Below are positions 19,816 through 50,116 of a stretch of 64,000 nucleotides of DNA, in pieces. Position numbers and translations under genes: made by a program. Source of the stretch: a virus (Duplodnaviria; Heunggongvirae; Uroviricota; Caudoviricetes); the IMG/VR virus record IMGVR_UViG_3300047493_000037, positions 30,713 to 94,712 of that record, one strand, 5' to 3'. The notes under the pieces were generated by a model. It saw nothing but the letters and a program-made list of their open reading frames with translations, ran no database searches and was not told the origin of the DNA. Position 1 is the stretch's first letter. Each line of letters opens with the position of its first letter.

Positions 19816-19830
19816 TTGTATAATCCCCGC

Positions 19831-28940: not shown

Positions 28941-29390
28941 ATGGATAACGAAAAGTTAATTGAATTCATGGATCAGCAAAGATGGCTGTTGAATAACGGT
29001 CTAGTGCCAGATTCTGTGAAAAATCAATTGTTCTTTTACGGCTCCATTGTCCATCCTGAGGTGCAAGCAGTCGAAGTAAAGATCCATCCTGAGGAGAAGT
29101 GTGTAGACTATAAGGTCTATTTCACGAAGAAAACTCTAAAAAAGATGGAAACTTATCGCAAACTCTCCACCTCTACATCACTGTTTGGCATGTGGAGATT
29201 TAAGCGTTTTCTTACAAAAGAAGGTAGTTTGGATTTTCAAAGTATGCTAGGCTCGTTCGTTAGAGATTTTTGTGGACCAAATTGGTCAACTAAACTCACT
29301 ATAGTGGACTTCGATGTATATGTAGATAACATTGGAGTTGAAGGTGAGCCCGATAAGTCAAGTCAGCCAACTAATAAATTGCCTGACTAA
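28941..29390 (+). CDS. Hypothetical protein
   Basis: AGGAG RBS before ATG 28941; TGATATAAT box upstream. Confidence 0.7.
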   Translation: MDNEKLIEFMDQQRWLLNNGLVPDSVKNQLFFYGSIVHPEVQAVEVKIHPEEKCVDYKVYFTKKTLKKMETYRKLSTSTSLFGMWRFKRFLTKEGSLDFQSMLGSFVRDFCGPNWSTKLTIVDFDVYVDNIGVEGEPDKSSQPTNKLPD

Positions 29391-29766
29391 AGATAAAGAT
29401 AGACAGCAAGATTTGTGGGTGCACTACTTAAGTGGTCACTCTCCATCGACGTTTGCTGCTCACTTAGATAAACTTAATCAAGAGTTTGTGGTCGAATCTT
29501 CTCTGCAGCAAAAACTGTGGGATGTCTTTAGTAACCCTCCATCTGATAAATTTAAAGAACTATTAAACAACTTCAGTGAAGTTGAACAATCCGTAGTCTG
29601 TCTACTAGCTTTAGGTTTAACTGTAACTGAGTTAAGTGGGTATAAAGGTATTAGTGAGATAAGGATTAGACAAGTCATGTCTGTTATTAGAGATAATGAC
29701 TGTTGGGAAGAGTTATATGGCGTTAAAGAAACGACTAACAGAAGAAGAGCGCTACGGACTGAGTGA
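29344..29766 (+). CDS. HTH protein, sigma region 4 / LuxR-like
   Basis: FSEVEQSVVCLLALGLTVTELSGYKGISEIRIRQ resembles the L(S/T)xxE...G...EIA...GIS...VR pattern. GTG start follows GGAG. Confidence 0.55.
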   Translation: MSPISQVSQLINCLTKDKDRQQDLWVHYLSGHSPSTFAAHLDKLNQEFVVESSLQQKLWDVFSNPPSDKFKELLNNFSEVEQSVVCLLALGLTVTELSGYKGISEIRIRQVMSVIRDNDCWEELYGVKETTNRRRALRTE

Positions 29767-32261: not shown

Positions 32262-32295
32262 TGTACTTTAGGTCACTAGAAGGTATAATGATTAA

Positions 32296-35450: not shown

Positions 35451-36095
35451 ATGAAAGGTTTTAGACAGCAGCCACAGGGTAATCGCAAAGAGAAGCTTCG
35501 TGAGCTTGAAGTTGAAGTTAAGAATATGGCCATGGCATCCCGTATTAGCCAAATGATGACTCAGCAACTGATGCAGAACATGAAGGCTATGCATGAAGAT
35601 ATCAGTCGCACGATGGGCATTCTAAGCGAACTTCAATACAAGATCCTGGCAATCCAGAAGGTATCTGGTCTTGATGTTGAACAGATGAATACTGTTGCTA
35701 ACGAGCAACGCCTTGTTGATTTTAATGAAGCCTCTGATAAAGAAGATGCTGAGCAGGGTTTCACTGTTGGTGATGTAGTCAATGAATCTAGCACCATTAT
35801 TCTAACTTCTACCACTGAAGAGAAAGATCGCGGAATCTTCCGTTCACGTCTCAAGTTATCAGAATGTGGAGTTCCGGACTTGATTACTGCCTTTATGGGA
35901 CGTGAAGTTGGAGCAAAAGCTATTTTGCAGTTGAATGGACTTGATCATGAAGTGGAACTTTTGGGCATTAGACAACCTCCAGCAGTGGTCGCCAATTCAA
36001 CTCAGCTCGACTTGGGACCCGAAACGGATGCGTCGCCGCTTGATACTGGTAACGTTTCTCCGCCAACTGCAAGTCCTCAAGTAGGCAATGCATAA
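35451..36095 (+). CDS. Hypothetical protein with a possible FKBP/GreA-like C-terminal fold
   Basis: GVPDLITAFMGREVG...VELLGI resembles the IPGFEEALIGMKxG pattern. Confidence 0.45.
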   Translation: MKGFRQQPQGNRKEKLRELEVEVKNMAMASRISQMMTQQLMQNMKAMHEDISRTMGILSELQYKILAIQKVSGLDVEQMNTVANEQRLVDFNEASDKEDAEQGFTVGDVVNESSTIILTSTTEEKDRGIFRSRLKLSECGVPDLITAFMGREVGAKAILQLNGLDHEVELLGIRQPPAVVANSTQLDLGPETDASPLDTGNVSPPTASPQVGNA

Positions 36096-36508
36096 TGTCA
36101 GACCAAGACGATAAGATGGACTCAAGATGCCCTCGTGCTCTAGAAACCCTCCCAGAGGGTTTCTGTCCACTTGCCGTCATGCGTCTTAGGGCAATCAGAA
36201 CAGCTGGACGAGAACTCACCGAAGAAGAGGAGTCTAAGCTTCCTGGTTGTCCATGGGCAGTTAATCATCAGCTTGCCAATTATTGCTTCTTTAAGTATAT
36301 AAAGGAGTTTGCCGGTGATAAACCACCTTCTGACATAGAAGTTGCTTCATTAAACTGTATGTCTGTTGATGCAGTTAAAAAGACTGAAAAGGTTGCTCTT
36401 ACTAAAATTAGAGACACCGACCAATTCCAGGATCTTAAGGATTCTATGGAAGGCGAGAATGTCGTTTCAGAACATCCGTCGGACGATGATTATAAAATCT
36501 ACAGATAG
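36095..36508 (+). CDS. Cys-containing protein with a sigma-70 region 4-like HTH
   Basis: SDIEVASLNCMSVDAVKKTEKVALTKIR matches the TLxEIAxxLGISxxxVxxIExxALxKLR pattern. Confidence 0.6.
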   Translation: MSDQDDKMDSRCPRALETLPEGFCPLAVMRLRAIRTAGRELTEEEESKLPGCPWAVNHQLANYCFFKYIKEFAGDKPPSDIEVASLNCMSVDAVKKTEKVALTKIRDTDQFQDLKDSMEGENVVSEHPSDDDYKIYR

Positions 36509-36695
36509 TCAAAGATTAGCAACCTACAATCTTTTAGATTTACTCCATAAATTAGGCATTAAGACCAGACCTCTTCTTTATGTAGAGGGTTTTCTTTTAA
36601 AGAGTGTCACTTTTGACATGAAAAACCTCGTTCTGTGGCCTAGCATTAAAAACACCCCATAAATCATAGTCTCTAGCCTGGTATAATTGAGTGGT

Positions 36696-38345
36696 ATGGC
36701 CAAGAAACCACTCGAGATTGATGCTTGCGCAGGGTCCCAGCTCAGGGATACCCAAGGAGAAATGCTCTCCGTTGAGGGAGCTGACATCTCTGAACTCCAA
36801 GCTGGCAAGGGCCGTTGGAACGACAATCACGGTAAGGGGTTTTTCAACTCTGTAGGCCGTATTACTCATGCCAAGAAGATCTTTAAAGAAGAAGACTGCG
36901 AAGATGACCGCCATAGATACTATTGGAACAAGGTCAAGGCGCCCTATGTCTACGTTAAAGGTTACCTGTACGACGACGAAGACCATCCAAACGCAAAGGC
37001 TGCCGCAGCCATCCTTCGTAACGTCCATAAGGCTGATTGTCCACTAAAACTGAAAGCCTCAGTAGAAGGTGGAGTAATTTCACGCGGGATCTCAGACCCA
37101 TCTCTTCTTGCAAGAACGAAGATACACTCTGTTGCACTTACCTTTACTCCTGCGAATGTTGCGACTCTTGTTGAGCCATTAAGTCTAGATAAATCTCAAT
37201 ATGATGAAGCCACTGATATGGTTCTCATCAAATCTGTTATACATCTTGCAGAAACCAACGTACCATCTTTTCGTCATATTGCCAGAGACGCATCTGCTTC
37301 TAAGGTTGTAAGCAACATAGAAAAGATAGCCTCTCTAGTCAAAGACGATAGACAGATTGACATACCTACTAAACAAGCGATAATTGAATATGCCTTAGAG
37401 GCAAAAATTCAAAGCAACATCGTTAAAATTCATGAAGAAGTTGAAAAAAGTTTAAAGAGTAATCTAGCAGGCGCTGCTATGATGGGCGCTGCTGCGCTTT
37501 CTCCATCTGTTGGAGATGCAAGAGCGCCTAAAAGATTACCTGCTCCACATCAAGAACAAGTACAACAAAGTTTAAATAAGATGCCGGAGCAGCATCAAAA
37601 GGCATATCAAGAATATGCAAAGAAGAACCCTCTTCTTGGCGCAATTGGCATGGTTGAATCAAGTGGCGGCAAAAATTATGCCCACAAAGCAATAAACAAC
37701 CCAAAGAGTATACATAACGGTCATGTTGCTGGTGGCATGTTCGGAATGATGCCAAATGCTGCAGAATATGCCTTAAGACATGATCCAAAACTAGCAAGCA
37801 AGTATCCTAAGCTATCCGAAGCTGCAAAAGACATGAAGAACAATCATCATGCGTTCACCGAAATGTTCAATTCTAATCCTGAGGCTGCATATGATTTTGC
37901 AAGCTCACTATTAAGCAGGAATAAGAACAAAACAAAAGACATCAATATGTTAATTCATTCTTGGAACAATGGCCTTAAGGGCACTTGGGAAAAATATAAG
38001 AATGAGGGTCCAGAGTCTATTAAGGATGCTGAATACGTTAAAAACGTTATGAAAGCATACAAAGGACTTACAGATCATAATTCAAAGAAAAATTTAACAA
38101 AAGCTCTCACTGCTGGTTATGGTGGTGCTGGTGCACCTACTTCAAATACAGGGGGTGGAGTACTTCAGTCTGAGTCATTAGATGATGGCAGAGGTAATAA
38201 AGATAAGAGTTTTAAGTATGTTACATGCGATGACTGCGGTAAAGAACAGATATATTCTAAGTATCAAGTTAAATGCAGAGATTGTAATAAGTCGTTCCCG
38301 ATGGAAAAGTTGCATAAACTTTTTTTAGGGGCGATAGCAACGTAA
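36696..38345 (+). CDS. Prohead protease fused to an SLT-like lytic transglycosylase, a capsid-like segment and a zinc ribbon
   Basis: N-terminal RDTQGEML...NDNH...KASVEG...SVALT, in HK97-type protease position between portal and MCP. Middle AIGMVESSGG...AGGMFGMMP...SWNNG. C-terminal CDDC...CRDC. Confidence 0.8.
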   Translation: MAKKPLEIDACAGSQLRDTQGEMLSVEGADISELQAGKGRWNDNHGKGFFNSVGRITHAKKIFKEEDCEDDRHRYYWNKVKAPYVYVKGYLYDDEDHPNAKAAAAILRNVHKADCPLKLKASVEGGVISRGISDPSLLARTKIHSVALTFTPANVATLVEPLSLDKSQYDEATDMVLIKSVIHLAETNVPSFRHIARDASASKVVSNIEKIASLVKDDRQIDIPTKQAIIEYALEAKIQSNIVKIHEEVEKSLKSNLAGAAMMGAAALSPSVGDARAPKRLPAPHQEQVQQSLNKMPEQHQKAYQEYAKKNPLLGAIGMVESSGGKNYAHKAINNPKSIHNGHVAGGMFGMMPNAAEYALRHDPKLASKYPKLSEAAKDMKNNHHAFTEMFNSNPEAAYDFASSLLSRNKNKTKDINMLIHSWNNGLKGTWEKYKNEGPESIKDAEYVKNVMKAYKGLTDHNSKKNLTKALTAGYGGAGAPTSNTGGGVLQSESLDDGRGNKDKSFKYVTCDDCGKEQIYSKYQVKCRDCNKSFPMEKLHKLFLGAIAT

Positions 38346-38893: not shown

Positions 38894-39712
38894 ATGAAAG
38901 ACGAATTAAGAAAGAGTCTTACAGACCTGATCGACGAGACGCTTCTCGAGCTCGAAGAGCTTAAGAAGTCTCGCTTCTCAGCAAGTGAGATCGAAATTAA
39001 GGGTCCTGGCGAAGGTATTGCAGGCAAGCCAACTAATGGCGATCTTCATGCTAAGGCTGAAGATAAGAAAGATGACAAGAAGGACGATGAAGACGAAGAG
39101 GCTGAAAAGGCCGAAGGTCATAATCGTCAAGCTGATCCAGATGGTGGACACCACAAGATGGATAAGGACGAAAGTGGTATGCCAGTTGGCACTACTGCTA
39201 AGGCCGAAGGTCACAATCGTCAAGCTGATCCAGACGGCGGCCATCACAAGATGGACAAGGCTGAAGATAAAGACGATAAAGATGACGACAAGAAGAAGAA
39301 AGACAAAGACGCCAAGGGCGGCGAAGAGCACGAGAAGAAAGAAAAAGAAGCTATTGGCAAACTTGCTAATCTAGCTGGCATGCGCAAATCTGATGAAGAG
39401 ATGCAAGGCCTAATGAAGAGCTTTGTTGAAGAGAGAGTAAGACCTCTTGAAGACAAGCTGTCAACTATCCTTAATCTTGTGAACAAGATCGCAGATCAAC
39501 CAGTTGCCCATAAGGGTGTTACTGGCCGTGCTGTTCCTCTGATGAAGAGTGCTGACGAGCTCGGTGGTGGTGAATCACTTTCTAAGTCTGAAGTAGCTTC
39601 AAAGCTATTTGAGCTTAAGAAGTCAGGAACTAAAGTTGACTCTCTGGATATTACCAGGGCTGAAATGGGACACGATCTCGCAAAGATCGTAGACAAATAT
39701 AAGATTTCGTAA
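38894..39712 (+). CDS. Capsid scaffolding protein
   Basis: Highly charged D/K/E protein immediately before the MCP, with many xxK-S/A sites. Confidence 0.7.
   Translation: MKDELRKSLTDLIDETLLELEELKKSRFSASEIEIKGPGEGIAGKPTNGDLHAKAEDKKDDKKDDEDEEAEKAEGHNRQADPDGGHHKMDKDESGMPVGTTAKAEGHNRQADPDGGHHKMDKAEDKDDKDDDKKKKDKDAKGGEEHEKKEKEAIGKLANLAGMRKSDEEMQGLMKSFVEERVRPLEDKLSTILNLVNKIADQPVAHKGVTGRAVPLMKSADELGGGESLSKSEVASKLFELKKSGTKVDSLDITRAEMGHDLAKIVDKYKIS
39107..39259 (+). repeat. Two copies of KAEGHNRQADPDGGHHKMDK (60 nt, period 93 nt)
   Basis: Copies start at 39107 and 39200 and differ only at synonymous positions. Confidence 0.9.
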
Positions 39713-39730: not shown

Positions 39731-41179
39731 ATGAATGACGCAATTAATCAAGTTTTGCAGGGTCTAGACCAAGGCCTCGTAAACGCAGCTGATATTGAAA
39801 ATTTGAATAAGGCGATCACCGCTGGTTACGGTGGAGCTGGTAAGCCTACAGACCTCACCTATGGTGGTGTTTTGCAGGCGGAATCCCTTGAAGCTACTCT
39901 CAAGTCGATTACTTTCGACATGAAGAATCTCAAGTTCTGGCCAGCAGTTAGCGTTGATAAGGCCTATAACTTGTTCGAACAGTACAACCGTTTGATCAGT
40001 TATGGTTCTGATTCGGCACCTTACATCGGTGAAGGTGGCGCTCCTCAGGAAGAAGATAGCACGTACGTACGTGACGGTCAAAAGATCGTGTTCTTCGGTA
40101 CTCGTCGTAGGGTTTCGCACCAGATGACGCTCGTACGTGTTACTGTTGGTGACATTGTCGCTCAGCAGGCAAAAGAAGGAACGATGCATCTTCTCAAGAA
40201 TATCGAACGTGAACTCTATTGGGGTCATGCTCACTTCATGAATGCAACTACCGGTGCAGAAACTGGTTCTGATGCTGATCTTCCAGTTAACTCTATCGCT
40301 ATGAGCGGCTTGCTAAAGCAGCTTCAGAAGGGTGACACGGATGCACAGATGCAAGCCGGTGACTTCCTCGGATATGGCGATTCTAGCTCGATCGTGACCG
40401 ATCTTGCTGGTCAGGTTATGGCTCAGGACGACATTGAACGTCTTGCCGTTATTGCCTTGGAAAACTTCGGTGCTCCAGATCAGTTGCATATCGAACCAGC
40501 TGCTCTATCAGCCTTCGTTAAGCAGTTCTATCCTCAGTTCCGTTCGGCTCCAGGTCTTGCTAACCAAACGGTTGGCTATGACGTGTCTAAGGTCCAAACG
40601 ACTGCAGGCGCTATCGATCTAAAGCCAAACTTGTTCTTGCGTCCACGTGCAGGCGTTCGCGCTCTTGCAGTGAACAACCAAGCCCCAGCAGCTTCCTTCA
40701 CGGCAGCAGCAGCGGGTGCAGCTGGTACTTCTAGCTTCGCAGCTGGAACCTATCAGGTCAAGGTAACAGCAGTGAATGATGCCGGCGAATCTTCTCCAGT
40801 GTCTTCTGCAGCTGTAACCCTCACGCAGGGCCAGAATATGGCAGTGACTCTTGGCGGAACCATCCCAAGCGGTGTTAAGTATTGGAAACTTTACATCTCC
40901 GCTCCAGGTGGTGCAGTTGGTACTGAAAAGTTCGCAGGTAACTGGGCTAACCAGGGTGCAGGCGTTTACACCAGCTCTAACGTGCAGCTCCCAGGCCTTG
41001 GTGAAGCATTCTTGCTCGACATGAGTGCTGAGTGCATGCGCTTCAAGCAACTTGCTCCTCTAAGCAAGATTAACTTCGCTATCGTGACGACTGCTCTTGA
41101 GTTCGCGATCGTGATGTACGGAGCGTTGTTCGTGTATACTCCTCGCTTCAACTGCTTGTTCCGTAATATGGGTAAGTAA
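39731..41179 (+). CDS. Major capsid protein, SPO1/K/A511 (Herelleviridae)-like
   Basis: LNKAITAGYG...GGVLQAESLEATLKSIT N-terminus, Ig/FN3-like insertion TYQVKVTAVNDAGES, biased codon usage, and a strong terminator downstream. Confidence 0.9.
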   Translation: MNDAINQVLQGLDQGLVNAADIENLNKAITAGYGGAGKPTDLTYGGVLQAESLEATLKSITFDMKNLKFWPAVSVDKAYNLFEQYNRLISYGSDSAPYIGEGGAPQEEDSTYVRDGQKIVFFGTRRRVSHQMTLVRVTVGDIVAQQAKEGTMHLLKNIERELYWGHAHFMNATTGAETGSDADLPVNSIAMSGLLKQLQKGDTDAQMQAGDFLGYGDSSSIVTDLAGQVMAQDDIERLAVIALENFGAPDQLHIEPAALSAFVKQFYPQFRSAPGLANQTVGYDVSKVQTTAGAIDLKPNLFLRPRAGVRALAVNNQAPAASFTAAAAGAAGTSSFAAGTYQVKVTAVNDAGESSPVSSAAVTLTQGQNMAVTLGGTIPSGVKYWKLYISAPGGAVGTEKFAGNWANQGAGVYTSSNVQLPGLGEAFLLDMSAECMRFKQLAPLSKINFAIVTTALEFAIVMYGALFVYTPRFNCLFRNMGK

Positions 41180-41654: not shown

Positions 41655-41673
41655 AAATACGTATAATAGCTCT

Positions 41674-42333
41674 ATGAAAAGAGCAATGTATATCTGTTTT
41701 GAGGGTACTGAGGGTGTTGGTAAGACTACTCAGACACAGAAACTTGTTGATTATCTAAGGGCGAAAGGTTATAAAGTTTTGCAAACCAAAGAGCCAGGAA
41801 CAATTCATGCTCCATTAACCTTACACCTTAGAGGTTATATGTTAGATAAGCAGTTTGAGGAGCAGCTCACTGCTCCTGCTCGTGAATTAATTAGTCAGGC
41901 AATTCGTTCTATTCATCTCGAAAAAGTCATTCTCCCTGCTCTATCTGAGTATGATTACATCATTCAAGATAGGGGAGTTCTCTCTGGTTTAGCGTATGGA
42001 ACTGCTTGTGGCAATGACATTCATTATATATCTCAACTCATAGAATATGTCTGTGCCCCAGCCGAAGGCGTTCTTTCTGATCGACTTTATGACAATGTTA
42101 TTTATCTTAAGGGCGATGTCTCTGCTGGCCTAGATAAGGCGCTTAAATCAAAACAAGAATTTGCTGCTGGTGATGCCATGGAAGCTAAAGGTACATCTTT
42201 CTTGCAAAAAACCTCGGCCAACATGGACGAGTATTCTCAGTCTTTTAACACAAGTGTCGTCTCTGTAGATGGCAAAAACATCGAAGAGGTGTTTAATGAC
42301 ATCTTACGAAGTCTCAACATGGGGAACAACTAA
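41674..42333 (+). CDS. tmk: Thymidylate kinase
   Basis: FEGTEGVGKTTQ, TKEPG, IIQDRG and VDGKNIEEV. Confidence 0.9.
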   Translation: MKRAMYICFEGTEGVGKTTQTQKLVDYLRAKGYKVLQTKEPGTIHAPLTLHLRGYMLDKQFEEQLTAPARELISQAIRSIHLEKVILPALSEYDYIIQDRGVLSGLAYGTACGNDIHYISQLIEYVCAPAEGVLSDRLYDNVIYLKGDVSAGLDKALKSKQEFAAGDAMEAKGTSFLQKTSANMDEYSQSFNTSVVSVDGKNIEEVFNDILRSLNMGNN

Positions 42334-43151
42334 TGGCTAAGAAAAAGCAAGCACCTATTAAAAAGGGTCCAAGAGTTCTTATATTCGACATTGAAACTGC
42401 GCCAATTATTGCTCATGTTTGGGGTTTGTGGGAGAACAATGTTGGACTTAACCAGGTTGTCAGCGACTGGCATGTCCTAAGTTGGAGTGCAAAGTGGCTC
42501 GATGATCCTGATACAAAGATCATGTATGACGATCAGCGCAATGAAAAGAACATCAGCAATGATAAACGTTTATTGCAAGGTATTTGGAATTTGTTAAATG
42601 AAGCCGATGTTGTAATCACTCAAAACGGTAAAAGTTTCGATCAAAAGAAGCTCAATGCTAGGTTTGTTATTAATAAGATGCAAAAGCCAAGCACTTTTAA
42701 GCACATTGACACAAAGATTGTTGCTAAAAGACATTTTGCATTCCCAAGCTACAGTCTTGAATATATGTCTAACGTTTTGTGCACAACTTATAAGAAATTG
42801 AAGCATAAGAAGTACCCAGGACATGAATTGTGGACTGAGTGCTTAAAGGGTAATCTCGATGCATGGAAAGAGATGGAGACATATAACAAGCATGACGTAC
42901 TTACTCTTCAGGAAGTTTATCATGCCCTTATTCCTTGGGACAGTTCTGTGAACTTTAATTTGTATCACGATGAACTTCACAATGAGTGTAAGTGTGGAAG
43001 CACAACCTTTAATAAGAATGGTTTTTACTACACTAATGTTGGTAAGTTTCAGAAGTACAAGTGCAAGACTTGTGGAGCGGAAACTCGTGATCGTCAAAAT
43101 CTTTTCTCTAAGGAGAAGAGAGACTCTTTGCAAACCAACACTGTTGGATAA
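42333..43151 (+). CDS. DEDD / RNase H-fold 3'-5' exonuclease with a C-terminal zinc ribbon
   Basis: IFDIET, NGKSFD, HIDT, YNKHDV and CKCG...CKTC. Confidence 0.85.
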   Translation: MAKKKQAPIKKGPRVLIFDIETAPIIAHVWGLWENNVGLNQVVSDWHVLSWSAKWLDDPDTKIMYDDQRNEKNISNDKRLLQGIWNLLNEADVVITQNGKSFDQKKLNARFVINKMQKPSTFKHIDTKIVAKRHFAFPSYSLEYMSNVLCTTYKKLKHKKYPGHELWTECLKGNLDAWKEMETYNKHDVLTLQEVYHALIPWDSSVNFNLYHDELHNECKCGSTTFNKNGFYYTNVGKFQKYKCKTCGAETRDRQNLFSKEKRDSLQTNTVG

Positions 43152-43851: not shown

Positions 43852-43924
43852 TCCCCGAAGCATTAAAAGTCGGGTTTTGGGTCCAACTCGCGGTATAATT
43901 ATCCTATAACTTTTAGGAGATACC

Positions 43925-44290
43925 GTGAAAACAGCAAATGTCGTTTCTGAGAACCTCAGACAAGCCGAAACAGGACTGGCGTGGGTAGAAGTGCTCACTA
44001 ATGCCCAGGGAACACTAAAACTCACTGATGCTCAAACCTTTAGAGTAAGGGCGACAGGTGCAACTACCGTTACAATTGACGGTCTTCTAGCGATGACTAT
44101 GTCCGCTGGTGAGATTGTTATCTTTAACACTGGTCATGGAAGCCCAGACGATACTTCTCCTTATATCACTGTTGTAATTGCTGGTGCAAATGCTTTTGTG
44201 CAAACTGCTGCAGAAGTTAATCGTCAAAGACTACAACCTAACCCATACAATCTACTTAACGAACCTGTTGGAACTGGCGAATCGCCTTAA
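43925..44290 (+). CDS. Probable virion protein
   Basis: GTATAAT box, AGGAG RBS, beta-rich. Confidence 0.55.
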   Translation: MKTANVVSENLRQAETGLAWVEVLTNAQGTLKLTDAQTFRVRATGATTVTIDGLLAMTMSAGEIVIFNTGHGSPDDTSPYITVVIAGANAFVQTAAEVNRQRLQPNPYNLLNEPVGTGESP

Positions 44291-44302: not shown

Positions 44303-45463
44303 ATGGAGCTTAAAAGCTTTAGGGAAATTCTCCTCAAAAAGGCGAATGGCAATCCCTATTTAGAAACGTTGATCAAGTACGCCAAAGATGAACTCATTGC
44401 AGAAGAGGTTCTTGAGGCCTTAACTAAGATGGCAGAGCCTAGCGCTGCAATGGGTCGTGGTGCAAATCATGCCGTTACTTCATATGCTGCAGGTATGAAA
44501 CCTGTGCATGTGGAACAGATGCGTGATGCTCTCGCTCATCATATTTCTCACTATAAAGGTGCATTAAAAGCACATCACGAGGCTACTGATCCAAGTCAGA
44601 AAGCAAAGATGCGCGGTGTTGCCGATCAACACTTGAATAAGATTGTTCCACTTATGCATCTAGCTGGTAAGGCTAGTAAACACTCTGGCGGAAATCTCAC
44701 CATTGATTATCCTACAACTACTCCGTGGGAAACTAATTACACAACAACCGAGAGACTTCCCAATGGTAAGTTGAAGGAAGGCACAAAGGATTTAGGTCGC
44801 AGACCCTCTCCAAATGCAAACAGGAGTAAGAATCCTAGAGCTGTACCAGATTATAGATATCTGGAAATGCCGCCACATCCAGGTCATGCTTCCACTGAAA
44901 AGATGCCACATAAGGGTGGATATCCATTCGAGGATATTCAACTTGGTACTCCTATGAAGCGTGACGCAGGGCAAGCGTATCTTCCTATTGAGGATATTAA
45001 GAACAAAACTGAGTTTACTCCTCACCCATTTGACGCTCATCCAGTTCATCGTTATGCAGACGCACCACAGCATGAACTTGGTCCAGAGCATCATGAAGCC
45101 ATTAATAATGGTCTTGCATCTTGGTCTAATAGCGATCATCAGAAGCAGTGGCTGGCAGATCAGAAAGCAAAGCATGCTGCTGATCCAGAGGCTTACAAGG
45201 CTAGAGGGACAACTAAACCTGGTCACACATATGAAGGTATTCCTCTTCAAGAGATGGAACACCACAAGGGCGGACAATCAGCTCCAGCTAGTGAGATTGC
45301 TAGCGATGTAGCGCAACCTGACACTGCTTCGCCTAAAGCTGCAGCAGGAAAAGAATCTCCAGAGGATGCTTTTAATAAATTTATGTCCAGTCTATCTCCT
45401 AAACAAAAAGCGGAAATGATGGCAAACCCACAATTCAAGGCCTTGTTTGAAGGGAAGAAGTAA
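44303..45463 (+). CDS. Hypothetical protein (probable internal head protein)
   Basis: AGGAG RBS; H/P/K-rich; N-terminal ELKS and LLKKA motifs. Confidence 0.6.
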   Translation: MELKSFREILLKKANGNPYLETLIKYAKDELIAEEVLEALTKMAEPSAAMGRGANHAVTSYAAGMKPVHVEQMRDALAHHISHYKGALKAHHEATDPSQKAKMRGVADQHLNKIVPLMHLAGKASKHSGGNLTIDYPTTTPWETNYTTTERLPNGKLKEGTKDLGRRPSPNANRSKNPRAVPDYRYLEMPPHPGHASTEKMPHKGGYPFEDIQLGTPMKRDAGQAYLPIEDIKNKTEFTPHPFDAHPVHRYADAPQHELGPEHHEAINNGLASWSNSDHQKQWLADQKAKHAADPEAYKARGTTKPGHTYEGIPLQEMEHHKGGQSAPASEIASDVAQPDTASPKAAAGKESPEDAFNKFMSSLSPKQKAEMMANPQFKALFEGKK

Positions 45464-47028
45464 TGACTAAGATTATTAAGTCTGAAGAACTTGATAGATT
45501 GGAAGCCATCTTACTGAAGGCTCGTAGACGTATGTCTGATGAGGCAAACGAAGATCAAGACGAAGAAGATGTATCGCCAGAAGAAGCTGGAATGAGAGAG
45601 TTTGACCCTGACACAGATGGTGATGACGCCGACAAATGGTTGGAAGAAAACGATACAGAAAATCGAGACAAGGATGACTATGATGAATACGGCCCTGATG
45701 AAGATGAAGAGTCTCACCAGCAAGAGCCTGAGTTGGATCAAGATGAAGTGGCAGATTCTGTTCCAGAAGTGGAAGGATCAAACGGTGCTCCGACTCCAGA
45801 GGTTGAAATCCCTGGAGCAGGAGGAGGAACAGCAGTTGAAGAACAACGTAGTCCAGATCAAGGACAGACTCAAGAAGAACCAGCGCAAGTAAAAGGTGAA
45901 AGTAGATTTCCACAGCCTTCTAGAGAAGACATCGCAGAAATGCGTCAATACACTCGCCCCTGGGAGCAAAGAGCTCGCGATAAGACTCGTTTAGAGGCTG
46001 AACCAGCTAAAAACCCAGTTCTTCATCATGAAGGAAAAATGGTTGAAGCTCGTAATGCTGCGCATAAGCAGTATCAAGATGCTTATGCTAGCATGCAAGC
46101 ATCTCCAGACTACCAAAATGCAGATCCTATCACTCAGATGGAGATGGATAGTAACTTTGAAAGCGACTTCCACAAGAAGAATCCTGATTATTTAGCTAAT
46201 GCTGCTAAACTTCATAGTGAAGCACATAAGAAAGGTCTTGGCGCAAAAGATGTCCACGCAGCGGCTAAAGATGAAGCTATTAGGCACGTTCTTACTGGTG
46301 GTGCTCAAGGCGATACTGGAATGTCAACCGAAGAGGCATTACAGCATGCTGGAGGAACTAAGGGAGAAGAGGGAACTACTGGGTCTATGACTCAAGATCC
46401 ATCTGCCTCTTTTGCTTCTGGCAATAAAGCATTTCTTGATCAATATGCAAAAGACTATGCAAACAAGTCAAAGAAACCTAAAGACGTAAGTGAGATGATG
46501 AATTATGATGAAGGTTCGAAAGCAGATGTTCAGCGCATCCTGGGTGAGCATCCTGCGCTTAAGGATCCTGCTAAGAAAGCTAAGGTCGATGCCTTCTTCG
46601 CGAAATACCATCCTTTGATTGGTATGAATGCCAAGAAGGTTCTTAATAAGCTTGGCTTAGATAGTAAGCGCAGCGATGTTGATTTAGGTATGCTTCATGA
46701 GGCGGGGATGCATGGTTTGATGCAGTCTATCAACGACTATAACCATGATCACCCCAGCAAGGCTTCCTTCTCAACTCATGCGGGCAATAAGATTCGTGGT
46801 TTACAGCAAACTGCTATGCGTGCACAAGATCAAGTTCCACAAGAACTAAGAGTTGGAGCGAAAAAGTTTCAACAAGCACAAGCTAGTCCAGTTTCAAAAC
46901 CAGATATCAAGGGAATGCTAAGCAAACATCCACCTGAAGTTGCTGATAGAATGAAGAGGATAGATGCCTTCAAAGCAAGTGCTGCTCCGAAGACACCTAA
47001 GCCTGAAGGAGGAACAAATGGGCAATAA
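45463..47028 (+). CDS. Acidic protein with a FliA/WhiG-like sigma region 2 and no region 4
   Basis: KYHPLIGMNAKKV...EAGMHGLMQSINDY...KASFSTHAGNKIRG...QDQVPQELR aligns by eye to FliA region 2. Confidence 0.7.
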   Translation: MTKIIKSEELDRLEAILLKARRRMSDEANEDQDEEDVSPEEAGMREFDPDTDGDDADKWLEENDTENRDKDDYDEYGPDEDEESHQQEPELDQDEVADSVPEVEGSNGAPTPEVEIPGAGGGTAVEEQRSPDQGQTQEEPAQVKGESRFPQPSREDIAEMRQYTRPWEQRARDKTRLEAEPAKNPVLHHEGKMVEARNAAHKQYQDAYASMQASPDYQNADPITQMEMDSNFESDFHKKNPDYLANAAKLHSEAHKKGLGAKDVHAAAKDEAIRHVLTGGAQGDTGMSTEEALQHAGGTKGEEGTTGSMTQDPSASFASGNKAFLDQYAKDYANKSKKPKDVSEMMNYDEGSKADVQRILGEHPALKDPAKKAKVDAFFAKYHPLIGMNAKKVLNKLGLDSKRSDVDLGMLHEAGMHGLMQSINDYNHDHPSKASFSTHAGNKIRGLQQTAMRAQDQVPQELRVGAKKFQQAQASPVSKPDIKGMLSKHPPEVADRMKRIDAFKASAAPKTPKPEGGTNGQ

Positions 47029-47968
47029 CGGTAACGATGATAGCGGATATCCATACGGACAGACACCAGATGGACTATATGAGGATCTTCCGGCAGCTGA
47101 TTTTGCAACTGGTCATATCCAAGGCACCGGCATAGTTAGAACTCCTACTGTTGCTCCATGGCCAGCGTGGTCCACAGGGCAAGAACCTGGATTTGAAAGA
47201 TATCTTCCACTTCCAACTCCTGAGACTATGAAGAACGGACCTCTATTTGGTCTGCCTTTAAAGTCATTCTTAACTGGACAAGTTGTTGAAGACAAAACTA
47301 TTGAATCTTATATTACTCAGGCTATCTCTGAGATTGAACACACTCTTAATCTCTTCATTACTCCTGTTACATTTTCAGAGAGGCATGATTACAGCAGAGA
47401 GATGCAGTTTTGGTCTTTTGGTGTCATCAAGCTGTACAACTCTCCTATTCTCAATGTTGAAGAGTATGAACTCACTTTCAACAACGGAATTGGAATTCCA
47501 GGTTCTTTGCCCTTGGTAAGGATACCTTTGGAGTTTATACATGTTCAACCTCAAGATGGCACAATTCAACTTGTTCCAGCTCAAGGTGTAACTATCTCTG
47601 GCTTTATTGTCAGTATTTATTCTGGCTTAGGGTATCATGCTTTCAACTCTCAAGCTATCTCATACTGGCCTGGAGCTGTGTTTGTGAAATATAGGGCTGG
47701 ATTTGAGCGTCATAAGGTTCCAGCCTTGCTAGTTGCGCTTATTGAAAACTTAGCCGCATATAAGTTTTTGTCTGCTCTAGGTCCAGTATTATTTCCGTAT
47801 AACTCTACTAGCGTAGGAATAGACGGAACTTCTCAAAGTGTTTCAACTCCTGGTCCACTATTTTTACAAAACAGGCTTAAAGATCTTCAGCAGATGATAG
47901 CAACAGAGATGGATGCTGCAAAAGGATACTATCAAAAACGTTTCTTAGTTGACGCGATAGGTTATTAA
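47018..47968 (+). CDS. Head-tail adaptor / neck protein
   Basis: IESYITQAISEIE...VKYRAGF...VPALL adaptor-like pattern. ATG 47018 follows GGAGG. Confidence 0.65.
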   Translation: MGNNGNDDSGYPYGQTPDGLYEDLPAADFATGHIQGTGIVRTPTVAPWPAWSTGQEPGFERYLPLPTPETMKNGPLFGLPLKSFLTGQVVEDKTIESYITQAISEIEHTLNLFITPVTFSERHDYSREMQFWSFGVIKLYNSPILNVEEYELTFNNGIGIPGSLPLVRIPLEFIHVQPQDGTIQLVPAQGVTISGFIVSIYSGLGYHAFNSQAISYWPGAVFVKYRAGFERHKVPALLVALIENLAAYKFLSALGPVLFPYNSTSVGIDGTSQSVSTPGPLFLQNRLKDLQQMIATEMDAAKGYYQKRFLVDAIGY

Positions 47969-47970
47969 AA

Positions 47971-49152
47971 ATGAGTAAGTTAATAGAAGTCACATCAGAC
48001 GGTAAACAAGAAGTAGTCCAGGGTAAGGAACCTTTAAAAAAGGAACCCAAGAGGAAGAGACTTAAGGACCGTTGGAACGATTTGAAGAAGGCACTTGATA
48101 ATAAGAAGTCCATCATGGATCTTGAGGAAGCTCAGGAAGATGATGAGCAGCCTTCTGATCAACAACCTCAGGAACAACCTGAGGGGGAACCTGTTGCAGC
48201 TGAAATCCCAGGAGAAAATGAGTCGCAAGATGCAGAGGGCGGCTCCCCAGATACAAATCTACCAGACCAAGAGGGAGAGCCAGATGGTGAAGAAGAAGAC
48301 GCATCTGATTCAGAATCAGTCGGAGTTGATCCAATGGCAATGGGAAATGATGCAACAGATGGCGAAGAAGATAAGCAAGAGGAAAATATTGATCCAGAAG
48401 AGTTGGCGGAAGCATTAAGGCAGGAAGGATATACCGAGCAAGAAGTTGCTTATATCGTTCATGGTCATCATTCCCCAGAGATTGATGAAACCAAACAAGC
48501 TAAAGCTGATGCTACTGCTGCTATGTCTCAAGTTGATGTGGATGCAGCAACAAAGCACTCTGAAATGGAGCGCGAACTTGCTCAAAAGAAGGCAGAGCAA
48601 GAACATCAGCATAAGGAGATGCTTGCTGCGCACGACCTTGAACATAAGAAGAGAATGTCTGATGTAGAGTATGATGGCGCAAAAGCATCTGCCCCAGATC
48701 CTACTGTTGATAAAAACCATCGTCAGCGTATGCTTGACTTAGAGTATGAACAAGCAAAGAGTCAAGCGCCAGATTCTGAGTACGAAAAGAATCATCGTAA
48801 GCGCATGATGGATATTGAATACGATAGTGCTAAGGCTCAGATGCCTAATGGTGAAGCTGATCAAGAGCACAATAAAAAATTAGCAGAGTTAGAAGTTGAG
48901 GCAAAGAAACTTGAACTTGAAGCTAAAAAGAAGCAAATTGAACTTGAGATAGAGTTTAAAGAGAAAGAACATGAGTTAAAACTTAAGCAGATGGAAATGC
49001 AGCTCAAGGAACAGGCTAAGCAGAAATCTCAAATTTCTGGAGAAAAGCATAAACATAAACTTGCAGAAGCAAAGAAGCCACCTGCGAAGAAACCACTAAA
49101 GAAGTCAGAAGACGAGGACGATTATGAGCAAGACGGACAAGACGCTGAATAA
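47971..49152 (+). CDS. Acidic coiled-coil protein with 25 aa repeats
   Basis: Three to four H-x-x-RM-x-D-x-EY-x-x-AK repeats; LKKA and LKKS motifs. Confidence 0.65.
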   Translation: MSKLIEVTSDGKQEVVQGKEPLKKEPKRKRLKDRWNDLKKALDNKKSIMDLEEAQEDDEQPSDQQPQEQPEGEPVAAEIPGENESQDAEGGSPDTNLPDQEGEPDGEEEDASDSESVGVDPMAMGNDATDGEEDKQEENIDPEELAEALRQEGYTEQEVAYIVHGHHSPEIDETKQAKADATAAMSQVDVDAATKHSEMERELAQKKAEQEHQHKEMLAAHDLEHKKRMSDVEYDGAKASAPDPTVDKNHRQRMLDLEYEQAKSQAPDSEYEKNHRKRMMDIEYDSAKAQMPNGEADQEHNKKLAELEVEAKKLELEAKKKQIELEIEFKEKEHELKLKQMEMQLKEQAKQKSQISGEKHKHKLAEAKKPPAKKPLKKSEDEDDYEQDGQDAE

Positions 49153-50116
49153 GTGTAACGAACTTATCGACAGATTGAACGAGCTAAAGAAGGCGCTTGA
49201 CAATGTTCAAGTGCAATCTAATAGGAAACCAGTAAACGCTCTAGGCGCTGGGTGGTCGCAAGACCCTAGCACAGGAACCTTTCATCACAGTGATCTTGGC
49301 ATGATCAGCACAACTAAACATCCTGATGGATACTATCAAGTTAATCATGGTGGGCGTTCTATCGGTCGCGCGGCTTCTCCCGGTGATGCAGGAATGAAGA
49401 TCAAGAATTATGTGAAAAACTTGCAACCAGGTGATACTGGGATGCACAACGTAGATTCTATGGCTCTTAAGGATGAAGATGGTGTTGGTAAGAGTGATTA
49501 CGGTAAATTTAAAGGCGGCAGTCAGTATGATGCCACTGCTAATTTAAAGCGTAAAGCAAACAATGTTGGAGATGTCGCTGGTGAAGGTAAGAACACAAAT
49601 GTTAAAGCATTTAGTACTAAACCTGGACAATTAAGCGCAAAACAGCAAGCAGCTAAAACTCCTTACAAAGGTGCAGCTGGTCCGGTGAAAAAATGGACAC
49701 CAGAGCAGATTGCTGCTGAGAACGAGGCACGTAAGTTAAAAAAGAATGCAGACGGTCCATGGGTCACTCACGCGTCTGTCCCTAACGCTGATGAAGAAGT
49801 TAAGAATCTTCAAAAAACTAATCCAGTCAATAAAGCAGAAGACATCATGTCTACTCAGCTAGCAAATATGATGGCTGGTAGGGCAATGCTTGGCATTAAA
49901 CCTCCAGCGCAGCCTACAGATCAAGAGATGTTTGGTCATCTAATTCCAACTGAAGAGCAGATTGAAAAAGCTGAACAAGGTTGGAATAATAGGTTAAATT
50001 GGTTAGAAGAAGCTATTAAGCCGATTTCTTCTAGGTTTAATTCGCCAGAAGAGGAAGCTCAATATTGGGCTTCTATTAAAGTCGCCGATAGAGACGATGG
50101 AAAATCAGGTTATTAA
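49124..50116 (+). CDS. Hypothetical protein (probable internal head protein)
   Basis: ELKKA, VGKS, VNKA and IEKA motifs. Confidence 0.6.
   Translation: MSKTDKTLNKCNELIDRLNELKKALDNVQVQSNRKPVNALGAGWSQDPSTGTFHHSDLGMISTTKHPDGYYQVNHGGRSIGRAASPGDAGMKIKNYVKNLQPGDTGMHNVDSMALKDEDGVGKSDYGKFKGGSQYDATANLKRKANNVGDVAGEGKNTNVKAFSTKPGQLSAKQQAAKTPYKGAAGPVKKWTPEQIAAENEARKLKKNADGPWVTHASVPNADEEVKNLQKTNPVNKAEDIMSTQLANMMAGRAMLGIKPPAQPTDQEMFGHLIPTEEQIEKAEQGWNNRLNWLEEAIKPISSRFNSPEEEAQYWASIKVADRDDGKSGY

What the first reader, a model, noticed from the sequence alone, without database searches (positions are those of the whole stretch)
45463..47028. Sigma region 2 without region 4 inside a probable capsid-internal protein: candidate split or virion-delivered sigma factor
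Seen: residues encoded at about 46591-46851 (KYHPLIGMNAKKV..EAGMHGLMQSINDY..KASFSTHAGNKIRGLQQTAMRAQDQVPQELR) match the FliA/sigma28 region 2 pattern (Y.PLV..IA..L..AGM.GL..A...YD....ASF.TYA..RIRG.....R..D..P). The protein ends about 55 aa later with no region 3/4 HTH. It has about 370 aa of acidic, disordered N-terminus, begins with IIKS and LLKA motifs like the head proteins, and sits between the head genes and the neck adaptor. Established: T4 gp55 is a sigma reduced essentially to domain 2 that reads a -10-only promoter and needs separate gp33. Inference: this phage packages or late-expresses a sigma2-only factor that is completed in trans by the region-4-like proteins at 29344 and 36095 and reads the GTATAAT boxes.
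Basis: partly seen in the sequence, partly recalled or inferred. Interest (0 to 1): 0.8.

Follow-up and report, generated by a model that had tools for sequence, protein, structure and literature searches.

The report
Minimal sigma module in phage head-operon protein
A large uncultured phage from a moss metagenome has a genuine but truncated sigma-factor module (promoter-melting half only) built into a conserved protein of its head/neck operon, which may let the virion carry its own promoter-recognition factor, though packaging is unproven.

Summary
ORF 45463-47028 (521 aa) carries a true sigma-70-family module at residues ~366-473: regions 2.1-2.4 plus the 3.0 helix. Regions 3.1-4.2 are absent. 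Direct Pfam and PHROG scans miss it, but profiles do not. The family profile hits FliA/WhiG at E 1e-7. It links at hhalign E 7e-28 to stand-alone 106-162 aa 'mini-sigmas', which hit WhiG/FliA at 3e-18 and pass Pfam Sigma70_r2. The AF2 model superposes on sigma28 (Z 8.2, rmsd 2.0 A over 78 aa).

The N-terminus is not 370 aa of disorder. It is a short helix with an L-x-K|A motif like the capsid protein's maturation site, a 120-aa acidic disordered tract, a confident helical domain and a conserved Gly-rich segment.

A distant phage has a sigma-less orthologue at the same position, so the module is an inserted cassette. Six related genomes (five at least 90% complete), this one included, each have only this one sigma-like module.

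Best reading: a minimal sigma for host RNA polymerase at the phage's -10-only, often leaderless promoters, made with head proteins and possibly delivered by the virion. Packaging, RNA polymerase binding and completion by sigma-4-like proteins remain untested.

The parts
43893..43899 (+). G-TATAAT -10 box with no -35 element; likely promoter of the operon that contains the finding
   Evidence: position; 25 nt before the 121-aa gene, which has a Shine-Dalgarno sequence. The equivalent box precedes the orthologous gene in L009 and L011.
43925..44290 (+). First gene of the operon, 121 aa, unknown function
   Evidence: Orthologues of 103-112 aa sit at the same position.
44303..45463 (+). 386-aa His-rich protein. 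Its N-terminus carries I-L-L-K-K|A, and its stop overlaps the start of the sigma-bearing gene (TAATG)
   Evidence: In a distant relative it is fused with the sigma-bearing protein into one 789-aa product (P0170).
45463..47028 (+). The whole ORF (P0001, 521 aa): a chimeric head-operon protein carrying a minimal sigma cassette
45463..45537 (+). N-terminal helix (residues 1-25) with L17-x-K19-A20-R21, a candidate prohead-protease or targeting motif
   Evidence: L17, K19, A20 and R21 are at least 90% conserved in 45 homologues. Related motifs occur at residues 16-38 of the portal, scaffold-like, capsid, 393-aa and 330-aa proteins. SPO1 MCP comparison.
45538..45897 (+). Acidic disordered tract (residues 26-145, net charge -37) with conserved short motifs R-E-F-D-P and A-D-K-W-L-x-E-N-D-P
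   Evidence: W59 and L60 are invariant.
45898..46302 (+). Helical domain (residues 146-280; four long helices). No recognisable relative. The first helix packs where sigma region 1.2 sits, in the model only
   Evidence: Nothing informative.
46303..46557 (+). Highly conserved Gly-rich segment (G-G-A-Q..M-S..E-E..Q-H-A-G-G.K-G-E-E-G-T...Q-D-P..F-A) plus the linker to the cassette
   Evidence: Invariant residues listed. The Gly-rich part is retained in the sigma-less orthologue P0401.
46558..46881 (+). Minimal sigma cassette (residues 366-473): regions 2.1-2.4 (46594-46830) and a region 3.0-like helix (46831-46881)
46882..47025 (+). Basic tail belonging to the carrier protein: helix H-P-P-E-V-A-D-R-M-K-R-I (46927-46962) and conserved P-K-P-E-G-G (46996-47013)
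   Evidence: The D-R-L-K-R helix is present in sigma-less P0401. It lies before rather than after the cassette in P0062 and P0395.
47018..47968 (+). Head-tail adaptor-like gene (phrog_772 / SPO1 gp6.3 type). The likely true start is ATG 47018, behind GAAGGAGGA, overlapping the sigma gene's end by 11 nt
   Evidence: In relatives the orthologue starts at the stop of the sigma gene.
36095..36508 (+). 137-aa Cys-rich protein with weak sigma region 4-like C-terminal half. Only a candidate partner, not shown to belong
   Evidence: 9 of 24 family members match PF04545, best E 2e-4. No PDB match.

Best explanation
P0001 is a chimera. The carrier is a ~350-aa protein conserved in the head/neck operon of a lineage of ~150-180 kb SPO1-capsid-type myoviruses. 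It has an N-terminal helix ending in L-x-K|A, an acidic disordered tract, a helical domain, a Gly-rich motif and a basic tail. Inserted into it is a FliA/WhiG-type minimal sigma cassette: regions 2.1-2.4 plus the 3.0 helix, with no 3.1-4.2.

Proposed mechanism:
- The cassette docks on the beta-prime clamp helices of the host RNA polymerase core through region 2.2.
- It melts and reads -10-only promoters through regions 2.3, 2.4 and 3.0. This is the only promoter type visible in this genome: G-TATAAT with no -35, often 6 nt before a start codon.
- The gene is transcribed and translationally coupled with head and neck genes, and it carries the same kind of N-terminal motif as the capsid protein's maturation site. 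The protein is therefore probably incorporated into proheads, trimmed, and delivered with the DNA, so that a phage-specific sigma is present from the first minute of the next infection.

Shown: the homology, the architecture, the cassette insertion, the synteny, and that it is the only sigma-like gene in the genome. Inferred: RNA polymerase binding, promoter class, proteolytic processing, packaging and delivery.
For: Sigma homology:
- The cassette is the most conserved part of the protein. Residues in 2.2 (H-E-A-G-M-H-G-L) and 2.3/2.4 (F-x-T-H-A..K-I-R-G-L..T) are invariant.

Cassette insertion:
- The sigma-less orthologue P0401 lies at the identical syntenic position in L019.
- The cassette lies on either side of the D-R-L-K-R helix in different members.

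Stand-alone relatives: mini-sigmas of 106-162 aa exist. The one context examined lies among replication and nucleotide-metabolism genes and has its own G-TATAAT-N6-ATG promoter.

Sole sigma:
- The own genome has no other sigma domain.
- Five related genomes (84-100% complete by CheckV, four at least 90%) each have exactly one match to the mini-sigma profile, always inside the long protein.
- All 23 loci from IMG/VR that are not cut off by a contig end carry the cassette.

Operon and coupling. Conserved synteny.

N-terminal motif:
- 7 of 18 head-module proteins have L-x-K-[AS] in the first 50 aa, against 12 of 152 elsewhere.
- A stricter 7-residue pattern gives 6 hits, 5 of them N-terminal in head/neck proteins, against 0.7 expected. 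That pattern was derived post hoc, and P0001 carries a variant of it.
- SPO1 MCP has A-L-N-K23|A at the matching place.

Promoters:
- Early and late regions use the same -10-only boxes, and no separate late motif was seen.
- The leaderless arrangement occurs 20 times against 4.6 +/- 2.2 expected.

From established knowledge (not tested here): sigma70 lacking region 4 still initiates at extended -10 promoters (Kumar et al. 1993, recalled). T4 gp55 works as a domain-2-only sigma (annotation; review PMC7824862).
Against: - There is no virion proteomics and no cultured relative.
- The same stretch between the capsid and adaptor genes also holds plainly non-structural genes (thymidylate kinase, 3'-5' exonuclease, CYTH). 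Position alone therefore does not make a virion protein.
- P0001's own motif (A-I-L-L-K-A) fits only the loose L-x-K-[AS] pattern, which 11% of all proteins show by chance.
- Two DNA-reading positions differ from sigma28. The -11A-stacking Tyr (Pa Y76) is an invariant His here. The extended -10 Arg (Pa R97) is variable (alignments, read against PMC12784957).
- G-TATAAT boxes could be served by the host primary sigma. They are not over-represented genome-wide.
- I found no published case of a virion-packaged sigma factor.
Confidence: 0.4

Rival explanations
1. Same biochemical role: a minimal sigma for host RNA polymerase at -10-only promoters, analogous to T4 gp55 or the SPO1-type late sigmas. 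It acts only inside the producing cell and is not packaged. The N-terminal carrier would regulate, localise or tether it, for example to replicating or packaging DNA.
For: - The sigma homology is as in the best explanation.
- The one stand-alone mini-sigma context examined is a non-structural region, consistent with a purely intracellular factor.
- Non-structural genes are interspersed in the same stretch.
- The N-terminal motif is short.
Against: - A sigma needed to switch on late genes would not normally be encoded in the middle of a late structural operon, translationally coupled to the adaptor gene.
- No distinct late promoter motif exists for it to read.
- The carrier protein pre-dates the cassette and is a conserved member of the head/neck operon.
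Confidence: 0.3
2. A sigma decoy or competitor. The domain-2 module occupies the beta-prime clamp helices of host RNA polymerase and blocks host sigma factors (host shut-off or redirection) without itself directing initiation.
For: - Region 2.2 is invariant.
- Two DNA-reading positions diverge from sigma28: Tyr to His, and the Arg is lost.
- An earlier, unchecked note says the phage also encodes SutA-like RNA polymerase-binding peptides.
Against: - Regions 2.3, 2.4 and 3.0 are as strictly conserved as 2.2, including an invariant F-x-T-H-A..K-I-R-G-L..T. A mere clamp-helix blocker would not need that.
- The phage shows no RNA polymerase of its own in the searches made, so it must keep the host enzyme active.
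Confidence: 0.12
3. A split sigma. The domain-2 protein is completed in trans by a separately encoded region 4-like protein (36095-36508 and/or 29332-29766) that binds the beta flap, as T4 gp33 complements gp55.
For: - The 36095 family shows recurrent weak Sigma70_r4 matches (9 of 24 members, best E 2e-4; a weak hit in L009).
- It is a core gene of the same lineage, and many of the same contigs carry both genes.
- There is a T4 precedent (PMC7824862).
Against: - Sigma-4-type helix-turn-helix folds are common in unrelated DNA-binding proteins.
- P0121 itself has no Pfam or PDB match.
- The 29332 protein has only HTH_74 at E 0.16.
- Co-occurrence is uninformative, because both are core genes.
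- The promoters lack a -35 element for a region 4 to read.
Confidence: 0.1
4. A structural or DNA-handling head protein that reuses the sigma-2 fold only as a single-stranded or fork DNA-binding module, with no role at RNA polymerase. Possible roles are genome-end protection, packaging, or ejection priming.
For: - It lies in the head/neck operon and has the N-terminal motif.
- Sigma domain 2 binds non-template single-stranded DNA on its own (PDB 3ugo/3ugp appear among the structural matches).
Against: - The RNA polymerase-binding region 2.2 is invariant.
- The one stand-alone relative whose context was examined lies in a non-structural region.
- The carrier already exists without the cassette, so the structural role does not need it.
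Confidence: 0.08

Closest known systems
FliA / WhiG (group 3 sigma-70-family factors; PDB 6pmi, 9wsm, 6pfj)
   Same: Regions 2.1-2.4 and the 3.0 helix align with 25-31% identity. Profile E is 1e-7, or 3e-18 through the mini-sigma family. Structural Z is 8.2-9.0.
   Different: - Regions 3.1, 3.2 and 4 are absent.
- The module is embedded near the C-terminus of a 521-aa protein of a phage head operon.
- The -11A-stacking Tyr is His and the extended -10 Arg is not kept.
- The loop between regions 2.2 and 2.3 has a 2-aa insertion.
T4 gp55 (with gp33 and the gp45 clamp)
   Same: The architecture is functionally the same: a phage sigma reduced essentially to domain 2, serving promoters that have only a -10-like element (PMC7824862).
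   Different: - There is no detectable sequence relationship (hhalign probability 0.3%).
- gp55 is a free 185-aa protein encoded outside the structural genes.
- No gp33 or clamp-tail equivalents were identified here.
Stand-alone phage 'mini-sigmas' of 106-162 aa found here (alignment A3), and the sigma F/G-like factors of Bacillus Herelleviridae phages
   Same: - It is the same subfamily as the cassette (hhalign E 7e-28).
- Both share the D-P-x-x-K...F-F..Y-x-P-L-I lead-in and the I-P-x-x-x-R..A-K ending.
- The nearest annotated relatives in cultured phages are the Bacillus phage sigma factors.
   Different: - They are free-standing. The one whose context was examined lies among replication and nucleotide-metabolism genes.
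- They keep Tyr in T-Y-A and a basic residue at the sigma28 R97 position.
- The Bacillus phage factors are full length.
Virion-delivered transcription hijackers (N4 vRNAP, phiKZ vRNAP, T4 Alt and the T4 internal proteins with their cleaved capsid-targeting sequence)
   Same: The proposed logic is the same: a factor made late, targeted to the prohead by an N-terminal peptide, trimmed by the prohead protease and injected to act on transcription at time zero. This rests on recalled knowledge, and on PMC12282133 for N4 and phiKZ.
   Different: - None of these is a sigma factor.
- Packaging of P0001 is not shown.
- The motif here is K|A of the HK97/SPO1 protease type rather than T4's L-x-E.
Pro-sigma E / pro-sigma K of Bacillus (sigma factors activated by removal of an N-terminal pro-sequence)
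   Same: It is a sigma module preceded by a removable-looking N-terminal extension. Pro-sigma K (8vjl_B) is among the structural matches at Z 7.3.
   Different: - The extension here is ~365 aa long with its own folded domain.
- The only conserved candidate cleavage site is at residue 19-20.
- The protease would be the phage prohead protease, which is untested.

Membership tests
Sigma-70 family (Pfam Sigma70_r2, PF04542) | Region 2 (2.1-2.4) is recognisable by sequence profile | tested here: met
   - A direct Pfam scan of P0001 is negative.
- The family profile hits FliA/WhiG at E 1.2e-7.
- hhalign to the mini-sigma family gives E 7e-28. Members of that family pass the PF04542 cut-off (36.8 and 38.8 bits against 24) and hit WhiG at 3e-18.
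Sigma-70 family (Pfam Sigma70_r2, PF04542) | Domain-2 fold | tested here: met
   - The AF2 model has pLDDT above 90 over most of 340-455.
- VIA-align gives Z 9.0 (6pfj_A, rmsd 3.0 A over 92 aa) and Z 8.2 (9wsm_F, rmsd 2.0 A over 78 aa, 31% identity).
- All of the top 50 Foldseek PDB rows are sigma factors, although E is only 1e-2 for the whole-protein model.
Complete group 3 sigma factor (FliA/WhiG type) | Region 3 (3.0-3.2, including the sigma finger) | tested here: not met
   Only a 3.0-like helix is present (residues 457-473). The following D-R-L-K-R helix belongs to the carrier, because the sigma-less orthologue has it.
Complete group 3 sigma factor (FliA/WhiG type) | Region 4 helix-turn-helix that reads the -35 element and binds the beta flap | tested here: not met
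   The protein ends 65 aa after region 2.4. There are no PF04545 or PF08281 matches in the protein or anywhere in the genome.
Functional sigma factor | Binds RNA polymerase core (beta-prime clamp helices) and directs promoter-specific initiation | not testable with these tools
   - The region 2.2 residues are invariant in the family, which is suggestive only.
- The one complex prediction gave no verdict (see Tried and rejected).
- Biochemistry is needed.
T4 gp55 family | Sequence relationship to gp55 | tested here: not met
   hhalign of A2 against T4 gp55 gives probability 0.3%, E 0.2.
Capsid-internal or ejected proteins with a cleaved N-terminal targeting peptide | An N-terminal peptide ending in the prohead-protease site used by the capsid protein | tested here: inconclusive
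   - L-L-K19|A20 is conserved in at least 90% of 45 homologues.
- It resembles the capsid N-L-N-K27|A and SPO1 A-L-N-K23|A.
- The motif is enriched in head-module proteins, but it is short, and P0001 fits only the loose form.
Capsid-internal or ejected proteins with a cleaved N-terminal targeting peptide | Presence in purified virions and entry into the host | not testable with these tools
   There is no cultured relative in the phage collection and no proteomic data.

The most novel reading that the evidence does not exclude
A phage packages a minimal sigma factor in its capsid. The sigma-2/3.0 cassette rides on a conserved head-internal carrier protein, is trimmed by the prohead protease and enters the cell with the DNA. 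There it captures host core RNA polymerase for the phage's -10-only, leaderless promoters from the first moment of infection. It may even recruit the polymerase to the entering DNA end to help pull the genome in. I know of no published virion-delivered sigma factor, so this may be the first.
Probability: 0.3. Interest if true: 0.85.

Novelty: new variant of a known kind. Interest (0 to 1): 0.62.

Why it matters
Known phage strategies fall into two groups. Some phages inject a complete RNA polymerase (N4, phiKZ). Others make a sigma or sigma-like factor after infection (T4 gp55, SPO1 gp28/gp34, phiEco32 gp36).

Here the sole sigma-like gene of a widespread lineage (>250 homologous proteins at E<=0.001 in metagenome collections) is a domain-2-only cassette. 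It is physically built into a head/neck-operon protein, and the genome uses a single promoter type that is -10-only and often leaderless.

If the protein is packaged, it would be a third strategy: deliver only the specificity subunit. Even if it is not packaged, the finding has value:
- The family and its free-standing 106-162 aa relatives are natural minimal sigmas. Unlike gp55, they are clearly alignable with FliA/WhiG, so structure-function rules for what a sigma needs without regions 3.2 and 4 become directly testable.
- The cassette insertion, the sigma-less orthologue and the fusion with the upstream neighbour give a clean evolutionary series.

Tried and rejected
- Direct Pfam and PHROG scans of P0001 and of residues 360-521, 370-470 and 150-370 gave no sigma hit.
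- megablast and tblastn of the region and the protein against 50,697 phage records gave no match. The C-terminal domain alone gave only E 0.03 hits to Bacillus phage sigma genes.
- Complex prediction of the cassette (A2) with E. coli beta-prime residues 240-330 scored 0.30 against a mark of 0.32. The tool's verdict was 'no answer', so this is evidence neither way.
- hhalign against T4 gp55 showed no relationship.
- BLASTP of P0001 against the 386-aa and 393-aa neighbours showed no significant similarity.
- For the middle domain (146-345), a profile against PDB found nothing. pdb_via_wide gave a best Z of 6.6, all generic long-helix matches. afdb_clusters gave E above 1. Atlas feature scores were at most 0.77, all to unnamed clusters.
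- P0121 and P0122 against PDB, as single sequences and as the A4 profile, showed no sigma-4 match.
- The N-terminal extension seen in some homologues (M-P-A-F-I-K-T-P-A-D-E-A-R-W...) is not encoded elsewhere in this genome.
- The look-up of sequencing runs listed no RNA holder. The DNA holders are mainly moss metagenomes.
- Attempts to search the rest of the contigs behind L019 and L014 failed: the records are not held, the alignment was too diverse for a pattern scan, and P0401 has no relative in viral contigs. I therefore could not test whether the phage with the sigma-less carrier has a free mini-sigma elsewhere.
- Literature searches found no paper on this lineage, nor on a packaged or region-4-less sigma in a head operon.


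Full report
THE OBJECT

ORF 45463..47028 on the + strand encodes a 521-aa protein, P0001. Its start ATG overlaps the stop of the upstream 386-aa gene (TAATG). Its last 11 nt overlap the probable true start of the adaptor gene. That start is ATG 47018, preceded by GAAGGAGGA inside the P0001 reading frame.

The window belongs to a 176,837-bp IMG/VR virus record that CheckV rates 100% complete. Its reads come mainly from moss metagenomes.

The phage is a myovirus:
- It has a tail sheath and baseplate genes upstream of the window.
- Its major capsid protein is about 32% identical to those of SPO1 and other Herelleviridae.
- Within the window lie terminase, portal, a prohead protease (fused to an SLT-like part), a scaffold-like protein and the capsid gene.
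- After the capsid gene come a 139-aa ORF, thymidylate kinase, a 3'-5' exonuclease, a CYTH protein, a 121-aa gene, the 386-aa gene, P0001 and then an SPO1 gp6.3-type adaptor.

IS THE SIGMA LIKENESS REAL? YES

Pfam and PHROGs give nothing for P0001 itself. All other tests agree that the likeness is real:
- Single-sequence phmmer against PDB returns only FliA and WhiG, at E 5e-4 to 3e-3.
- P0001 has more than 250 homologues in metagenomes, many on 165-180 kb contigs. One was auto-named a 'specialized sigma subunit' by JGI.
- A profile of 45 homologues hits FliA at E 5e-7. A profile of the C-terminal domain alone hits it at E 1.2e-7.
- Searching 1.84 billion representative proteins with that profile gives three tiers:
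  - long proteins of 450-790 aa with the module at the C-terminus;
  - short free-standing proteins of 106-162 aa;
  - ordinary 230-300 aa sigma factors that carry Pfam r2, r3 and r4.
- The short proteins (alignment A3) are the bridge:
  - they match the P0001 domain at hhalign probability 99.8%, E 7e-28;
  - they match WhiG/FliA at E 3e-18;
  - several pass the Pfam Sigma70_r2 gathering score.
- The AlphaFold2 model is confident over most of 340-455. It superposes on sigma28 and WhiG at Z 8.2-9.0, with rmsd 2.0 A over 78 residues and 31% identity to 9wsm_F. Every one of the 50 best Foldseek rows is a sigma factor.

The alignment covers regions 2.1-2.4 and runs on into the 3.0 helix (I-P-x-E-x-R..A-K-K-F).

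Nothing corresponding to regions 3.1, 3.2 or 4 follows. Six-frame scans of the whole genome with Sigma70_r2, r4 and r4_2 find nothing. There is no paralogue of P0001.

WHAT THE REST OF THE PROTEIN IS

The actual layout is:
- Residues 1-25 form a helix ending in L17-x-K19-A20-R21, which is at least 90% conserved.
- Residues 26-145 are acidic (net charge -37) and disordered. They contain invariant short motifs, including W59-L60 in A-D-K-W-L.
- Residues 146-280 form four long, confidently predicted helices.
- Residues 281-340 are a strikingly conserved Gly-rich segment that is poorly ordered in the model.
- The sigma cassette follows.
- Last comes a basic tail with a D-R-L-K-R helix and a conserved P-K-P-E-G-G ending.

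The helical domain has no informative relative. In the full-length model its first helix lies where sigma region 1.2 lies, so the intervening ~190 aa are placed like the sigma70 non-conserved region. That is a feature of a model and no more.

THE CASSETTE IS AN INSERTION INTO AN OLDER PROTEIN

A search with the middle domain alone found P0401, a 350-aa protein on a 118.6-kb contig.
- Its gene sits in exactly the same place: capsid, tmk, exonuclease, CYTH-size gene, ~106-aa gene, ~345-aa gene, then P0401, then a 276-aa adaptor.
- It has the N-terminal L-R-K-A, the acidic tract with A-D-K-W-L, the helical domain, the Gly-rich motif and the D-R-L-K-R tail.
- It has no sigma module at all.

Among members that do carry the module, it lies after the Gly-rich segment. 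It lies either before the D-R-L-K-R helix (P0001, P0083) or after it (P0062, P0395). The sigma part is therefore a discrete cassette of the same kind as the free mini-sigmas, captured by a conserved carrier protein of the head/neck operon.

In a further relative the upstream 386-aa protein and the carrier are fused into one 789-aa product, with the same synteny (P0170). This argues that the two neighbours work together.

All 23 IMG/VR loci that are not truncated by a contig end carry the cassette. In five related genomes (84-100% complete by CheckV, four at least 90%) the mini-sigma profile finds exactly one match each, always inside the long protein.

The one free mini-sigma context examined is different. 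It lies among DNA ligase, ThyX, RNR, RNase H and ClpP genes, on the opposite strand, behind its own G-TATAAT-N6-ATG promoter.

PROMOTERS

GTATAAT is not more frequent than chance genome-wide: 43 observed against 41 +/- 7 in shuffles. It stands 5-8 nt before an ATG or GTG 20 times, against 4.6 +/- 2.2 expected.

The same boxes precede early-looking minus-strand genes, late structural genes and a tRNA-like gene. I saw no separate late motif.

The operon holding P0001 starts at the box at 43893. The orthologous operons in two relatives start the same way.

IS IT A HEAD-INTERNAL PROTEIN? PLAUSIBLE, NOT SHOWN

In favour:
- It is co-transcribed and translationally coupled with neck and head genes.
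- The carrier is conserved at that position.
- It shares an N-terminal motif with head proteins. The capsid protein reads ...I-E-N-L-N-K27|A-I-T-A-G, which lines up with SPO1 MCP ...A-L-N-K23|A. That is the position at which I recall A511-type capsid proteins being cleaved; an unchecked note of this scan says the same.
- L-x-K-[AS] occurs within the first 50 residues of 7 of 18 head-module proteins, against 12 of 152 others. It is conserved in orthologues.
- A stricter seven-residue pattern, derived post hoc, matches the portal, scaffold-like, capsid, 393-aa and 330-aa proteins. It has one other hit in the proteome, against 0.7 expected.

Against:
- P0001 and the 386-aa protein carry a variant ((A/E)-I-L-L-K-(A/K)) that fits only the loose pattern.
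- Non-structural genes sit in the same stretch.
- There are no proteomic data.

MECHANISM

I commit to the following, with steps marked.

Shown:
- The cassette is a FliA/WhiG-type sigma domain 2 plus the 3.0 helix.
- It is the only sigma-like element found in the six related genomes searched, including this one.

Inferred from family knowledge:
- Region 2.2 binds the beta-prime clamp helices.
- Regions 2.3, 2.4 and 3.0 nucleate melting at, and read, a -10 or extended -10 element.
- All these regions are invariant or nearly so in the family.
- Against Pseudomonas sigma28 (PMC12784957; alignments), the Tyr that stacks on the flipped -11A is an invariant His439. The Arg that reads the extended -10 G-C pair is not kept, while E461 and R463 are. 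This is compatible with a different promoter specificity, but also with an altered function.
- A sigma without region 4 can work at promoters that need no -35 (recalled: Kumar et al. 1993; T4 gp55, and PMC7824862). That is the only promoter type seen here.

Inferred from context: the protein is made with head proteins, trimmed at K19|A20, packaged and delivered. This would explain why early and late genes share one promoter type, and why the sigma gene sits in a late operon.

My odds are:
- about 0.7 that the cassette acts on host RNA polymerase;
- about 0.35-0.4 that it is also delivered by the virion;
- about 0.1 for completion in trans by the 137-aa protein at 36095. Its family has only weak region 4 likeness (9 of 24 members, best E 2e-4), and nothing links the two proteins beyond being core genes.

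COMPARISON WITH WHAT IS KNOWN

It is a member of the sigma-70 family by region 2, but it is not a complete group 3 sigma. Functionally it resembles T4 gp55, but it is not related to gp55 in sequence. Its nearest annotated relatives in cultured phages are the sigma F/G-like factors of Bacillus Herelleviridae.

Minimal phage sigmas are known. A minimal sigma built into a head-operon protein, as the sole sigma of a large lineage, is to my knowledge not described. I therefore rate it a new variant of a known kind.

EARLIER NOTES OF THIS SCAN

The scan has not reported this protein on other DNA. Notes on the same genome about leaderless genes, the G-TATAAT consensus and the 36095 protein were leads that I re-tested.

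Noticed in passing
whole genome; e.g. window 32283-32298 (portal), 41661-41676 (tmk), 36681-36697 (protease), 19818-19833 (DNA polymerase): Many genes are leaderless: G-TATAAT, then 5-8 nt, then ATG or GTG with no Shine-Dalgarno sequence (20 cases against 4.6 +/- 2.2 in shuffles). GTATAAT itself is at chance frequency genome-wide. Several ORF starts should be moved to the ATG 6 nt after the box. Examples are the DNA polymerase at 19831 rather than GTG 19801, and the dNMP-kinase-like gene at 34452.
   Followed up: partly
L019:9001-10053 (protein P0401): This is a sigma-less orthologue of the carrier protein, at the same syntenic position in a distant relative on a 118.6-kb contig. It shows that the sigma module is an inserted cassette.
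   Followed up: yes
L018:3839-6208 (protein P0170): In one relative the 386-aa upstream protein and the sigma-bearing protein are a single 789-aa ORF. An L-N-K-G motif sits near the junction, which may be a polyprotein-like cleavage point.
   Followed up: partly
L014:4772-5128 and alignment A3: There is a family of free-standing 106-162 aa sigma domain-2-only proteins with Pro-rich and acidic tails. The one context examined lies among replication and nucleotide-metabolism genes, behind a leaderless G-TATAAT-N6-ATG promoter. Unlike T4 gp55, these natural minimal sigmas align clearly with FliA/WhiG.
   Followed up: partly
window 32296-34293 (portal), 38894-39712 (scaffold-like), 39731-41179 (capsid), 47971-49152, 49124-50116: These proteins share an N-terminal pattern at residues 16-41: hydrophobic, E/N, x, L, x, K, A/S. 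It resembles the SPO1/A511 capsid maturation site. This suggests that the portal, the scaffold-like protein and two proteins downstream of the adaptor are also processed or targeted.
   Followed up: partly
window 46964-47968: The mechanical ORF start at 46964 is probably wrong. ATG 47018, behind GAAGGAGGA, matches the orthologues, whose adaptor gene begins at the stop of the sigma gene.
   Followed up: yes
window 47971-49152: This 393-aa protein is very acidic (net charge -45), with a coiled-coil-like Lys/Glu repeat region and the N-terminal L-K-K-A motif. No family match was found. It may be another internal or neck protein.
   Followed up: no
window 13221-14942 and 19801-23265: The phage encodes a GroEL-type chaperonin (phrog_5725) and an 1154-aa DNA polymerase (phrog_405) with a separate exonuclease subunit at 42333-43151.
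   Followed up: no
window 29332-29766: This small ORF just before the likely small-terminase gene ends in an HTH-like stretch (..L-G-L-T-V-T-E-L-S-G-Y-K-G-I-S-E-I-R-I-R-Q-V..). Only a weak HTH_74 hit (E 0.16) was found. It overlaps neighbouring ORFs and its start is uncertain.
   Followed up: partly
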